A stretch of DNA of 64,000 nucleotides from the human T2T-CHM13v2.0 reference genome, Homo sapiens, in assembly GCF_009914755.1 (NCBI RefSeq), contig NC_060933.1; one strand, given 5' to 3'. The notes under the pieces are model-generated. The model was not told the origin of the DNA. It saw only the letters and a program-made list of their open reading frames with translations, and made no database searches. The translations under genes were made by a program, and so were the position numbers. Shown here piece by piece: positions 5,584 through 51,165 of the stretch. Within the stretch, counting starts at the first letter, position 1. Each line of letters opens with the position of its first letter.

Positions 5584-8500
5584 ATTTTTATTTCTTTTAT
5601 TATTATACTTTAAGTTATAGAGTACATGTGCACAATGTGCAGGTTTGTTACATATGCATACATGTGCCATGTTGGTGTGCTGCACCTGTTAACTCGTCAT
5701 TTACATTAAGTATATCTCCTAATGCTATACCTCCCACCTTCCCCCACTCTCTGCCAGGCCCCGGTGTGTGATGTTCCCCACCCTGTGTCCAAGTATTCTC
5801 GTTGTTCAATTCCTACCTAAGAGTGAGAACATGCGGTGTTTGGTTTTCTGTCCTTGCGATATTTTGCTCAGAATGATGGTTTCTAGCTTTATCCATCTCC
5901 CTACAAAGGACATGAACTCATCCTTTTTTATGGCTACATAGTATTCCATGGTGTATATGTGCCACATTTTCTTAATCCAGTCTATCATTGATGGACATTT
6001 GGGTTGGTTCCAAGTGTTTGCTATGGTGAATGGTGCCGCAATAAACATATGTGTGCATGTGTCTTTATAGCAGCATGATTTACAGTTTCTGCCGAGAGGT
6101 CCGCTGTTAGTCTGATGGGCTTCCCTTTGTGGGTAACCTGACCTTTCTCTCTGGCTGCCAGTGATGGGATGGCTGGGTCAAATGGTATTTCTAGTTCTAG
6201 ATCCTTGAGGAGTCGCCATACTGTCTTCCACAATGGTTGAACTAGTTTACAGTCCCACCAACGGTGTAAAAGTGTTCTTATTTCTCCACATCCTCTCTAG
6301 CACCTGTTGTTTCCTGACTTTTTAATGATCGCCATTCTAACTGGTGTGAGATGGTATCTCATTGTGGTTTTGATTTGCATTTCTCTGATGGCCAGTGATG
6401 ATGAGTATTTTTTCATGTGTCTGTTGGCTGCATAAATATATTCTTTTGAGAAATGTCTGTTCATATCCTTTGCCCACTTTTTGATGGGGTTGTTTGATTT
6501 TTTCTTGTAAATTTGTTTAAGTTCTTTGTAGATTCTGGATATTAGCCCTTTGTCAGATGGGTAGATTGTAAAAATTTTCTCCCATTCTGTAGGTTGCCTG
6601 TTCACTCTGATGGTAGTTTCTTTTGCTGTGCAGAAGCTCTTTAGTTTAATTAGATCTCATTTGTCAATTTTGGCTTTTGTTGCCATTGCTTTTGGTGTTT
6701 TAGTCATGAAGTCCTTGCCCATGCCTATGTCCTGAATGGTATTGCCTAGATTTTCTTCTAGGGTTTTTATGGTTTTAGGTCTAACATTTAAGTCGTTAAT
6801 CCATCTTGACTTAATTTTTGTGTAAGGTATAAGGAAGGGTTCCAGTTTCAGCTTTCTGCATATGGCTAGCCAGTTTTCCCAACACCATTTATTAAATAGG
6901 GAATCCTTTCCCCATTGCTTGTTTTTGTCAGGTTTGTCAAAGATCAGATGGTTGTAGATGTGTGGTATTATTTCTGAGGGCTCTATTCTGTTCCATTGGT
7001 CTATATATCTGTTTTGTTACCAGTACCATGCTGTTTTGGTGACTGTAGCCTTGTAGTATAGTTTGAAGTCAGGTAGTGTGATGCCTCCAGCTTTGTTCTT
7101 TTTGCTTAGGATTGTCTTGGCAATGTGGGCTCTTTTTTGGTTCCATATGAATTTTAAAGTAGTTTTTTCCAATTCTGTGAAGAAAGTCATTGGTAGCTTG
7201 ATGGGGATGGCACTGAATCTATAAATTACCTTGGGGAGTATGGCCATTTTCACAATATTAATTCTTCCTATCCATGAGCATGGAATGTTCTTCCATTTGT
7301 TTGTGTCCTCTTTTATTTTGTTGAGCAGTGGTTTGTAGTTCTCCTTGAAGAGGTCCTTCACTTCCTTTGTAAGTTGGATTCCTAGGTATTTTACTCTCTT
7401 TGTAGCAATTGGGAATGGGAATTCACTCATGATTTGGCTTTCTGTCTGTTATTGGTGTATAAGAATGCTTGTGATTTTTGCACATTGATTTTGTATCCTG
7501 AGACTTTGCTGAAGTTGCTTATCAGCTTAAGGAGATTTTGTGCTGAGACGATGGGGTTTTCTAAATATACAATCATGTCACCTGCAAACAAGGACAATTT
7601 GACTTCCTCTTTTCCTCATTGAATACCCTTTATTTCTTTCTCCTGCCTGATTGCCCTGGCCAGAAGTTCCAACACTATGTTGAATAGGAGTGGTGAGAGG
7701 GGGCATCCCTGTCTTGTGCCAGTTTTCAAAGGGAATGTTTCCAGTTTTTGCCCATTCAGTATGATATTGGCTGTGGGTTTGTCATAAAGAGCTCTTATTA
7801 TTTTGAGATACGTCCCATCAATACCTAATTTATTGAGAGTTTTTAGCATGAAGTGTTGTTGAATTTTGTCAAAGGCCTTTTCTGCATCTATTGAGATAAT
7901 CATGTGGTTTTTGTCATTGGTTCTGTTTATGTGATGGATTACGTTTATTGATTTGCGTATGTTGAACCAGCCTTCCATCCCAGGGATGAAGCCAACTTGA
8001 TCGTGGTGGATAAGCTTTTTGATGTGCTGCTGGATTTGGTTTGCCAGTATTTTATTGAGGATTTTTGCATCAATGTTCATCAGGGATATTGGCTAAAATT
8101 CTCTTTTTTTGTTGTGTCTCTGCCAGGCTTTGGTATCAGGATGATGCTGGCCTCATAAAATGAATTAGGGAGGATTCCCTCTTTTTCTATTGTTTGGAAT
8201 AGTTTCAGAAGGAATGGTACCAGCTCCTCTTTGTACCTCTGGTAGAATTTGGCAGTGAATCCGTCTGGTCCTGGATATTTTTTGGTTGGTAGGCTATTAT
8301 TGCCTCAATTTCAGAACCTGTTATTGGTCTTTTCAGGGATTCAACTTCTTCCTGGTTTAGTCTTGGGTGGGTGTATGTGTCCAGGAATTTATCCATTTCC
8401 TCTAGATTTTCTAGTTTATTTGCGTAGTGGTGTTCATAGTATTCTCTGATGGTAGTTTGTATTTCTGTGGGATCAGTGGTGATATCCCCTTTATCTTTTT

Positions 8501-11030
8501 TTATTACATCTTTGATTCTTCTCTCTTTTCTTCTTTATTAGTCTTGCTAGTGGTCTAGCAATTTTGTTGATCTTTTCCAAAAACCAGCTCCTGGATTCAC
8601 TGATATTTTGAAGGGTTTTTTTGTGTCTCTATCTCCTTCAGTTCTGCTCTGATCTTAGTTATTTCTTGCCTTCTGCTAGCTTTTGAATGTGTTTGCTGTT
8701 GCTTCTCTAGTTCTTTTAATTGTGATGTTAGGGTATCAATTTTAGATCTTTCCTGCTTTCTCTTGTGGGCATTTAGTGCTATAAATTTCCCTCTACACAC
8801 TGCTTTGAATGTGTCCCAGAGATTCTGGTATGTTGTGTCTTTGTTCTCATTGGTTTCAAAGAACATCTTTATTTCTGCCTTCATTTCGTTATGTACCCAG
8901 CAGTCATTCAGGAGCAGGTTGTTCAGTTTCCACGTAGTTGAGCGGTTGTGAGTGAGTTTCTTAATCCTGAGTTGTAGTTTGATTGCAGTGTGGTCTGAGA
9001 GACAGTTTGTTATAATTTCTGTTCTTTTACATTTGCTGAGGAGTGCTTTACTTCCAACTATGTGGTCAATTTTGGAATAAGTGTGATGTGGTGCCGAGAA
9101 GAATGTATATTCTGTTGATTTGGGGTGGAGAATTCTGTAGATGTCTGTTAGGTCTGCTTGGTGCAGAGCTGAGTTCAATTCCTGGATATCCTTGTTAACT
9201 TTCTGTCTCATTGATCTGTCTAATGTTTACAGTGGGGTTTTAAAGTCTCCCATTATTATTGTATGGGAGTCTAAGTCTCTTTGTAGGTCTCTAAGACTTG
9301 CTTTATGAATCTGGCTGCTCCCGTATTGGGTGCATATATATTTAGGATAGTTAGCTCTTCTTGTTGAACTGATCCCTTTACCATTATGTAATGGCCTTCT
9401 TTGTCTCTTTTGATCTTTGTTAGTTTAAAGTCTGTCTTATCAGAGATTAGGATTGCAACCCTGGCTTTTTTTTGTTTTCCATTTGCTTGGCAGATCTTAC
9501 TCCGTCCCTTTATTTTAAGCCTATGTGTGTCTCTGCACGTGAGATAGGTCTCCTCAGTACAGCACACTGATGGGTCTTGACTGTATCCAATTTGCCAGTC
9601 TGTGTCTTTTAATTGGAGCATTTAGCCCATTTACATTTAAAGTTAATATTGGTATGTGTGAATTTGATCCTGTCATTATGATGTTAGCTGGTTATTTTGC
9701 TCATTAGTTGATGCAGTTTTTTTCCTAGGCTCGATGGTCTTTACAATTTGGCATGTTTTTGCAGTGGCTGGTACCGGTTGTTCCTTTCCATGTTTAGTGC
9801 TTCCTTCAGGAGCTCTTGTAAGGCAGGCCTGGTGGTGACAGAATCTCTCAATATTTGTTTGTCTGAAAAGGATTTTATTTCTCCTTCACTTATGAAGCTT
9901 AGTTTGGCTGGATATGAAATTCTGGGTTGAAAATTCTTTTCTTTAAGAATGTTGAATATTGGCCCTCACTCTCTTCTGGCTTGTAGAGTTTCTGCTGAGA
10001 GATCCGCTGTTAGTCTGATGGGCTTCCCTTTGTGGGTAACCTGACGTTTCTGGCTGCCCTTAATATTTTTTCCTTCATTTCAACTTTGGTGAATCTGACA
10101 ATTATGTGTCTTGGAGTTGCTCTTCTTGTGGAGTATCTTTGTGGCGTTCTCTGTATTTCCTGAATTTGAATGTTGGCCTGCCTCACTAGGTTGGGGAAGC
10201 TCTCCTGGATGATATCCTGAAGGGTGTTTTCCACTGGGTTCCATTCTCCCCGTCACTTTCAGGTACACCAATCAGACGTAGTTTTGGTCTTTTCACATAG
10301 TCCTGTATTTCTTGGAGGCTTTGTTCATTTCTTTTTACTCTTTTTTCTCTAAATTTCTCTTCTCTTTTCATTTCATTCATTTGTTCTTCAATCAATGATA
10401 CTCCTTCTTCCACTTGATCAAATCGGCTACTGAAGCTTGTGCATTCGTCACATAGTTCTCTTGCCATCGTTTTCAGCTCCATCAGGTCATTCAGGGATTT
10501 CTCTACACTGTTTATTCTAGTTAGCCATTCATCTAATCTTTTTTCAAGGTTTTTAGCTTCTTTGCGATGGGTTTGAACATCCTCCTTTAGCTCGGAGAAG
10601 TTTATTATTACCCATCGTCTGAAGCCTTCTTCTCTTAACTCATCAAAGTCATTCCCAGTCCAGCTTTGTTCCGTTGCTGGTGAGGAGCTGCGTTCTTTTG
10701 GAGGGGGAGAGGCGCTCTGATTTTTAGAATTTTCAGCTTTTCTGCTCTGGTTTCTCCCATCTTTGTGGTTTTATCTACCTTTGGTCTTTGTTGATGGTGA
10801 CATACAGATGAGGTTTTCATGTGGATGTTTATTCGTTTTCCTTCTAACAGTCAGGACCCTCGGCTGCAGGTCTGTTGGAGTTTGCTGGAGGTGCACTTCA
10901 GACCCTGTTTGCCTGGATATCACTAGCGGAAGCTCAGTTGGAAATGCAGAAATCATTCGTCTTTTGTGTCGCTCACGCTGGGAGCTACAGACTGGAGCTG
11001 TTCCTATTTGGCCATCTTGGAACCTCCTCC
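5584..11030 (-). mobile_element. L1PA5-like LINE-1, 5'-complete but with spliced 5'UTR; ORF1/ORF2 disrupted; inserted in a MIR
   Basis: ORF1/ORF2 peptide fragments in the track; 5' end GGAGGAGGTTCCAAGATGGCC. TSD gtgactgagtatct (5570-5583) / gtgactgcttatct (11031-11044), with MIR-like sequence on both sides. Confidence 0.95.
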
Positions 11031-51000: not shown

Positions 51001-51165
51001 CACGCTCAGTGCACTGCACCCACTGTCCTGCACCCACTCTCTGACAATCCTCAGTGAGATGAACCCGGTACCTGAGTTGGAAATGCAGAAATCATTCGTC
51101 TTTTGCATCGCTCTTGCTGGGAGCTGTAGACTGGAGCTGTTCCTATTTGGCCATCTTGGCTCCAC
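45035..51165 (-). mobile_element. Full-length L1PA4-like LINE-1 (about 6.1 kb); ORF1/ORF2 disrupted
   Basis: Complete 5'UTR, ORF1 and ORF2 fragments (492 and 340 aa) and 3'UTR; TSD agccactt(a/c)attt at 45025-45037 / 51166-51178. Confidence 0.97.
50718..50954 (+). other. Open L1 ORF0 (antisense 5'UTR ORF), 78 aa
   Basis: MAGVPPPASLPPCS...GVGPSEP...IRVGVTRF matches the primate L1 ORF0 peptide; Kozak ACAATGG. Confidence 0.85.

What the first reader, a model, noticed from the sequence alone, without database searches (positions are those of the whole stretch)
6291..51105. Two L1s 39 kb apart look like different subfamilies yet share rare variants
Seen: the elements differ at subfamily-type sites (5' end GGTTCCAAG vs GAGCCAAG; KTILSKK vs KSILSQK; 3'UTR aatgtaaat vs aatgttaaat). 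Yet both carry the same bases that depart from the recalled consensus: IRALYD for IRAIYD (7789/47178), NDCWV for NDYWV (8901/48298), DHTAI for DHSAI (8988/48385), ctctctagca for ctctccagca (6298/45686; the in-window L1PA7 has the consensus), ttctcttgcc (10461/49863) and cattcgtcttttg (10954-10966/51093-51105). Most are not CpG transitions. Inference: repeated short-tract non-allelic gene conversion between co-oriented neighbours, or a shared source lineage with local retrotransposition. Such pairing would also make them an NAHR substrate able to delete or duplicate exons 2-6, including the ATG.
Basis: partly seen in the sequence, partly recalled or inferred. Interest (0 to 1): 0.7.

Follow-up and report, generated by a model that had tools for sequence, protein, structure and literature searches.

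The report
Neighbouring L1s copy each other's mutations
Several separately inserted, dead LINE-1 copies inside the human CCDC171 gene share mutations that are rare elsewhere in the genome, likely because neighbouring copies have overwritten short patches of one another during DNA repair, and spot checks suggest this likely happens between L1s up to about 200 kb apart across the genome.

Summary
Elements A (5587-11030) and B (45031-51165) are 92.7% identical, have their own target-site duplications and sit on different rungs of the L1PA tree. They share seven variant tracts that are rare genome-wide (17 of 7,826 copies for IRALYD; 4 copies for the 5' motif). Six local elements share alleles in a patchwork that no tree fits (51 of 78 site pairs conflict). 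Best reading: repeated short-tract non-allelic gene conversion among neighbours, not a shared source. It is probably not peculiar to this locus. For rare variants chosen blind, same-allele carriers lay within 200 kb in 7 of 1,349 pairs, against 1 of 4,007 for different variants; a third blind site, which turned out common, showed nothing. Neighbour conversion is described for Alus within about 10 kb; I found no such account for L1. The NAHR-deletion idea is weak at 92.7% identity. A is also an unlisted spliced L1 (SpIRE97/853 type). No orthologues were available for dating.

The parts
5587..11030 (-). Element A: older (L1PA6-like, label recalled) L1, broken ORFs, spliced 5'UTR, own 14-bp TSD with 2 mismatches
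45031..51165 (-). Element B: full-length, younger (L1PA5-like, label recalled) L1, broken ORFs, own 16-bp TSD with 1 mismatch. Further partners lie beyond the window's end: H (chr9:15,636,213-15,639,856, minus), D (15,639,944-15,646,087, plus), I (15,656,165-15,662,307, plus) and J (match at 15,761,482, plus)
30731..32836 (+). Element C: oldest local copy (L1PA7-like, label recalled), 5'-truncated; shares few rare ORF2 alleles (1 site in 5 pairs), and a 4-base 3'UTR variant with A and partly H
6279..6329 (.). A/B identical tract around ctctctagca (B 45667-45717); allele also in I
7693..7823 (.). Two adjacent A/B identical tracts (45 and 85 bp; B 47082-47212) holding the 47089 allele and the IRALYD allele; IRALYD also in D and H
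8889..9079 (.). A/B tracts holding NDCWV (26 bp; also D, I) and DHTAI (105 bp; also J); B 48286-48476
10421..10467 (.). A/B identical tract (47 bp; B 49823-49869) holding ttctcttgcc
10936..10966 (.). A/B identical tract (31 bp; B 51075-51105) with three C>T changes, next to A's splice junction; 4 copies genome-wide
10922..10942 (-). Splice junction of A: donor near L1 nt 97 joined to an acceptor near nt 850 (SpIRE97/853 type)
6083..6159 (-). About 75-nt ORF1-derived patch replacing about 25 nt of A's 3' end region; differs from A's own ORF1 copy
45997..46063 (.). B/D identical tract (67 bp) with a double variant found in 9 places genome-wide; one of the two changes also in I

Best explanation
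A and B are independent L1 insertions of different age that share rare variants with each other and with at least four more L1s within 190 kb, likely because short patches were repeatedly copied between neighbours by non-allelic gene conversion in the germ line. Shown: separate insertions, different tree rungs, genome-wide rarity of the alleles, their local clustering, a tree-incompatible patchwork, both orientations, and identical runs of only 7-150 bp around shared alleles. Inferred: a break or nick in one L1 is repaired without crossover on a physically close L1 of the same chromosome, which copies tens of bases and leaves flanks and TSDs intact. Also inferred: at least one tract (IRALYD) went from the older A/H to the younger B and D, and most events happened when the copies were more alike than today. 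The process is likely general for young L1s within about 200 kb, and this locus stands out mainly because it is L1-dense.
For: Own TSDs for A, B and I, and no flank homology in the window. Tree order C < A,H < I < B < D with supported nodes between them. 3 of 17 IRALYD, 4 of 72 NDCWV, 3 of 34 DHTAI, 2 of 4 5'-motif and 2 of 9 B/D double-variant carriers lie in this cluster. Local pairs share 28 rare non-CpG sites in 37,336 aligned bases (0.75/kb) against 438 in 2,781,949 (0.157/kb) for unlinked pairs; 2 of 500 and 0 of 500 random groups reach the local rate. 51 of 78 site pairs conflict. IRALYD lies two bases from an older-type base (3 of 28 in the B-like panel, 17 of 18 in the older panel) and both occur in the young B and D. 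Blind rare variants: same-allele pairs within 200 kb 7 of 1,349 vs 1 of 4,007, P = 4e-4. Other lists, with the chr9 cluster removed: 13 of 4,950 vs 1 of 4,800.
Against: No GC bias among shared alleles (weak-to-strong 9, strong-to-weak 8; private alleles 89 and 96), though numbers are small. The longest A/B identical run (105 bp) is ordinary (median 97 in 288 unlinked pairs), so no long tract remains. Single unlinked pairs reach 1.85 shared sites/kb, above A/B's 1.0/kb in the 3-kb test region. The third blind site showed no excess (6 of 4,050 same vs 2 of 900 different), but its main allele was common (525 matches in all). Close pairs elsewhere were not read, so some may be duplications. No clear TSD was found for D or H. 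Two unlinked copies carry the full three-change 5' motif, so small source lineages may explain some alleles. The panel of 47 copies was not random. No orthologues, so no dating.
Confidence: 0.82

Rival explanations
1. The copying is real but RNA-templated: nascent CCDC171 pre-mRNA or L1 cDNA made from it, held at the locus, serves as the repair template.
For: All seven sharing elements lie inside the CCDC171 span given in the gene table, and sharing reaches 190 kb in both orientations. cDNA-mediated conversion is pointed to for yeast Ty elements (PMC6598467, a cut passage and a reference title). No GC bias was seen.
Against: Close same-allele pairs occur on many chromosomes, although their gene context was not checked. 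DNA-DNA repair needs no extra assumption. No call tests transcription.
Confidence: 0.08
2. Shared ancestry: a local source element, or small source lineages, seeded nearby insertions that inherited the variants.
For: A and H are sisters in the tree, with weak support. Two unlinked copies share the three-change 5' motif. Some IRALYD carriers elsewhere share further alleles with each other.
Against: The elements span five rungs of the tree. A is spliced while B, D and I keep the intron. 51 of 78 site pairs conflict with descent.
Confidence: 0.04
3. Old duplications or toggling inversions between the L1s shuffled their sequence.
For: Several pairs are inverted, H and D lie 87 bp apart head to head, and neither shows a clear TSD.
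Against: A, B and I keep matched TSDs, the window self-comparison shows no shared flanks, and crossovers would swap long blocks rather than 7-150 bp patches.
Confidence: 0.03
4. Assembly or polishing error, or chance parallel mutation.
For: Only one assembly was examined. Parallel hits do occur (242 copies of ctctctagca).
Against: About 25 shared rare sites in 3 kb of six elements, and third carriers outside the window at joint P about 4e-9. Errors would not be expected to favour partners 40-190 kb apart across unique flanks (own knowledge).
Confidence: 0.03

Closest known systems
Non-allelic gene conversion among neighbouring Alu elements (Aleshin and Zhi 2010, seen only as described in PMC8230782 and PMC6598467)
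   Same: Same signature: nearby copies share non-diagnostic mutations in excess.
   Different: The Alu effect is reported within about 10 kb. Here it is L1, partners are 30-190 kb apart, and six or more elements of different subfamilies form a network.
Subfamily-changing Alu conversions (Doronina et al. 2021, PMC8230782)
   Same: Partial conversion gives mosaics; old-to-young and young-to-old transfers occur.
   Different: Those cases were shown with orthologues, and the passages read do not locate the donors. Here donors are local but nothing is dated.
LINE-LINE NAHR (Startek et al. 2015, PMC4344489)
   Same: Ectopic pairing of L1s on one chromosome.
   Different: That is the crossover outcome and needs about 96% identity or more. 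These pairs are 89-94% identical and show only non-crossover traces.
Recombinant young L1s in pangenome assemblies (PMC13192797)
   Same: Mosaic L1 sequences exist (35 of 2,267 removed as recombinants).
   Different: In the passages read they were filtered out, donors were lineage groups, and genomic distance was not examined.
SpIRE97/853 (Larson et al. 2018, PMC5860796), for element A only
   Same: Donor near nt 97 joined to an acceptor near nt 850, PA5/PA6 age, TSD and endonuclease site.
   Different: A is not among the nine listed loci (none is on chr9).

Membership tests
Non-allelic gene conversion between transposable-element copies | Copies are independent insertions, not duplicates | tested here: met
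   TSDs for A, B and I, no shared flanks, different tree rungs; D and H have no clear TSD
Non-allelic gene conversion between transposable-element copies | Excess of shared non-diagnostic variants among neighbours | tested here: met
   0.75 vs 0.157 per kb; genome-wide counts
Non-allelic gene conversion between transposable-element copies | Patchwork that conflicts with a single tree, in short tracts | tested here: met
   51 of 78 site pairs conflict; identical runs 7-150 bp
Non-allelic gene conversion between transposable-element copies | Non-reciprocal change after insertion, shown by orthologues or polymorphism | not testable with these tools
   Only one primate genome is held
Non-allelic gene conversion between transposable-element copies | Sharing falls with distance | tested here: inconclusive
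   Same-variant excess up to 200 kb, weaker to 500 kb, none at 1-3 Mb; small counts, and no clean decline inside 200 kb
Non-allelic gene conversion between transposable-element copies | GC bias of transferred alleles (feature recalled) | tested here: inconclusive
   9 vs 8 shared, 89 vs 96 private; no bias seen, low power
LINE-LINE NAHR substrate | Direct orientation, more than 4 kb aligned, less than 10 Mb apart | tested here: met
   5,343 aligned bases, 39.4 kb apart
LINE-LINE NAHR substrate | Identity of about 96% or more | tested here: not met
   92.7% against the floor in PMC4344489
LINE-LINE NAHR substrate | Observed CNV with breakpoints in both elements | not testable with these tools
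   No SV catalogue available
SpIRE97/853 (element A) | Precise loss of a GT...AG interval from the donor at 98/99 to the acceptor at 851/852 | tested here: met
   Junction joins the base before GT to the base after CTGCAG; the acceptor lies 819-857 nt from the 5' reference point in 7 unspliced copies. Assignment to 851/852 is by position; the paper's junction sequences were not compared
SpIRE97/853 (element A) | TSD, poly(A) tail and endonuclease site | tested here: met
   14-bp TSD with 2 mismatches, degenerate tail, CTTT/A site
SpIRE97/853 (element A) | L1PA4-PA6 subfamily | tested here: inconclusive
   Placed between the oldest and the B-like copies; no subfamily consensus library was available

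The most novel reading that the evidence does not exclude
Young primate L1s convert one another routinely across a chromosomal neighbourhood of about 200 kb, ten to twenty times the reach described for Alus. Roughly one in ten rare L1 variants would then have a copy in a neighbour, and each L1-dense region would be a local mosaic network whose reach may record germ-line 3D contacts.
Probability: 0.55. Interest if true: 0.7.

Novelty: new variant of a known kind. Interest (0 to 1): 0.55.

Why it matters
Dead L1 copies are usually treated as independent neutral clocks. If neighbours up to 200 kb apart exchange short patches, then ages from divergence, subfamily calls, source-daughter inference and mutation-rate estimates in L1s all carry a local bias, and some apparent de novo variants in L1s are copied ones. 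Shared rare alleles would also give a genome-wide fossil record of which sites touch during germ-line repair at only 90-96% identity. That is directly testable with T2T ape genomes and Hi-C. The locus itself has no shown effect on CCDC171.

Tried and rejected
Shared source or local retrotransposition: rejected by the tree and by site conflicts. Duplication of A and B: rejected by flanks and TSDs. Long conversion tracts: none, the longest run is ordinary. GC bias: not seen. NAHR risk: below the reported identity floor. I first read A's junction as SpIRE97/790; the paper's passages and the position moved it to 97/853. The ORF1 patch in A could not be assigned to any local donor among 33 copies compared. 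The third blind site was a poor choice: its main allele is common, probably an older subfamily base (recalled), and it gave no excess. A special hotspot at this locus is not supported: 55 of 315 local variant carriers have a local partner, against 11 of 104 blind and 17 of 217 pooled carriers elsewhere, by criteria that differ. Still open: no sequence-level comparison of unselected neighbour clusters, no reading of J or of the close pairs on other chromosomes, no genome-wide count of ttctcttgcc. Literature searches for L1 neighbour conversion or this locus listed no such paper. The library lacks most subscription papers, and Aleshin and Zhi 2010 itself was not seen.
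Full report
Observation. Self-comparison of the window finds two long minus-strand L1s, A (5587-11030) and B (45031-51165), and a shorter plus-strand copy C (30731-32836), with no matching flanks. A and B are 92.7% identical over 5,343 bases. Both have broken reading frames; the longest stop-free stretches are 209 and 497 codons. Each has its own target-site duplication.

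Rarity. Exact pattern counts over the whole genome gave 17 carriers of IRALYD among 7,826 copies of that site, 72 of NDCWV, 34 of DHTAI, 4 of the 5' motif and 242 of ctctctagca (first 100 listed). I did not count denominators for the last four. Seven A/B events against 0.8-1.5 expected gives P = 3e-5 to 1e-3.

More partners. The lists showed carriers just outside the window: D (chr9:15,639,944-15,646,087), I (15,656,165-15,662,307) and J (match at 15,761,482). Reading D revealed H (15,636,213-15,639,856), 87 bp upstream of it. D, I and J are in the opposite orientation to A and B. These carriers played no part in choosing the variants. Four of five variants have such a carrier (ctctctagca in I was seen by sequence); the 5' motif has none. 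The joint chance is about 4e-9 with 3-fold clustering and independence assumed. A B/D double variant, chosen after seeing D, has 9 carriers, five of which are chr1 copies that I took as one duplication from recall.

Panel test. The panel was 47 unlinked copies: 29 best hits to B, 14 other IRALYD carriers and 4 of the 42 rows for A. It is not a random sample. In B 45680-48690, leaving out the IRALYD site and CpG-type changes, the 15 local pairs share 28 sites absent from the panel in 37,336 bases. Unlinked pairs share 438 in 2,781,949 and mixed pairs 121 in 712,506. Random groups of six reach the local rate in 2 of 500 draws, and in 0 of 500 without the 14 selected copies. Against this, the best unlinked pair reaches 1.85 per kb, A/B alone 1.0, and C shares almost nothing there.

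Not descent. A tree of 49 copies on 2,727 non-CpG columns puts the six local elements on a ladder: C, then A and H, then I, B and D, with supported nodes between the rungs. The subfamily names PA7-, PA6-, PA5- and PA4-like are my recalled labels for these rungs. Among 13 shared sites that I picked, 51 of 78 pairs conflict with any tree: for example A,B,I at 45686; B,D,I at 46019; A,D,H at 46621; A,B,D,H at 47178; D,H,I at 48606. Identical runs around shared alleles are 7-150 bp, and 26-105 bp for A/B. The longest A/B run is ordinary for this identity (median 97 in 288 pairs). The IRALYD base travels with an older-type neighbouring base into the young B and D, which suggests transfer from A or H; this is inference. 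Shared alleles show no GC bias.

Is it general? With the chr9 cluster removed, ctctctagca carriers on chr1-6 lay within 200 kb of each other in 13 of 4,950 pairs, against 1 of 4,800 pairs with carriers of other variants. L1 copies themselves cluster about 3-fold at that scale (79 vs 27 expected in the listing). Two rare transversion sites chosen blind gave 60 and 44 carriers: same-allele pairs within 200 kb were 7 of 1,349 against 1 of 4,007 (P = 4e-4). Dropping a chr1 trio that may lie in a duplicated gene cluster (recalled) leaves P = 1e-3 against all cross pairs. Pooling all complete lists gives 10 of 4,183 against 4 of 19,253. A third blind site had 525 matches, mostly one common allele, and showed no excess in the first 100. 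I did not read these pairs, so duplications may explain some. About 8-11% of rare-variant carriers elsewhere have a same-allele neighbour, against about 17% in this cluster by a looser criterion. The locus looks like a dense example, not a unique hotspot.

Mechanism. The best fit is non-crossover repair of a lesion in one L1 on a nearby L1 of the same chromosome, copying tens of bases. The pairing, the lesion and the timing are inferred. An RNA or cDNA template from the CCDC171 locus is not excluded, since all seven elements lie inside the gene.

NAHR. Exons 2-6 and the start codon do lie between A and B (gene table). Startek et al. report 97-98% identity as needed and 96% as the minimum for LINE-LINE NAHR (PMC4344489, passages), so this pair is a poor substrate today. 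No SV data were available.

Element A is a spliced L1. Its 5'UTR joins the base before the GT donor to the base after a CTGCAG acceptor that lies 819-857 nt from the 5' reference point in seven unspliced copies. This fits SpIRE97/853 (PMC5860796, passages). The nine loci in that paper's table include none on chr9 (supplement rows). Since B, D and I are unspliced, A cannot be their source.

What is known. Neighbour conversion of non-diagnostic mutations is reported for Alus within about 10 kb (PMC8230782 and PMC6598467, passages; the primary paper was not seen). A pangenome study removed 35 recombinant young L1s without, in the passages read, looking at distance (PMC13192797). Passages of PMC11451754, PMC5035501 and PMC11794170 added nothing on L1 conversion. 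Eight searches, seen as listings with abstract starts, showed no paper on conversion between neighbouring human L1s or on this locus. Subscription papers and preprint supplements were not visible and may bear on novelty.

Verdict. The feature is real, the mechanism belongs to a known kind, and the new aspects are the element class, the reach of 30-190 kb, the multi-element network and the hint that it is genome-wide. Interest 0.55.

Noticed in passing
window 10922-10942: Element A is a spliced L1 of the SpIRE97/853 type that is not among the nine published loci.
   Followed up: yes
window 6083-6159: About 75 nt of ORF1-derived sequence replaces about 25 nt in A's 3' end region. It lacks the 4-nt deletion of A's own ORF1 copy, so it looks like a templated repair insertion from another L1 or an earlier state of A.
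   Followed up: partly
L049 and L048 (chr9:15,636,213-15,646,087): H and D are inverted L1s only 87 bp apart (3.6-kb arms, 92.3% identical), with the highest local sharing (6 sites in 3 kb, a 150-bp identical run) and no clear TSDs.
   Followed up: partly
window 29890-32983: Element C is inserted into an older plus-strand L1 (about 73% identical to B), splitting it.
   Followed up: no
chr8:72,839,881 and chr12:58,210,823: Two unlinked L1s carry the same three-change 5' motif as A and B, more than simple chance would suggest; perhaps a small source lineage or long-range transfer.
   Followed up: no
chr1:46.70-46.89 Mb: Three L1s within 190 kb share one rare transversion. Two of them seem, by position, to be copies that differ at a subfamily site, which would argue against duplication.
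   Followed up: partly
listing, chr1-6: Close same-variant pairs pile up at 100-200 kb (11) with none at 50-100 kb; unexplained, possibly noise.
   Followed up: no
L054 (element I), at the site matching B 47176: I carries the younger-type base here although it sits on an older rung than B; a possible young-to-old transfer.
   Followed up: no
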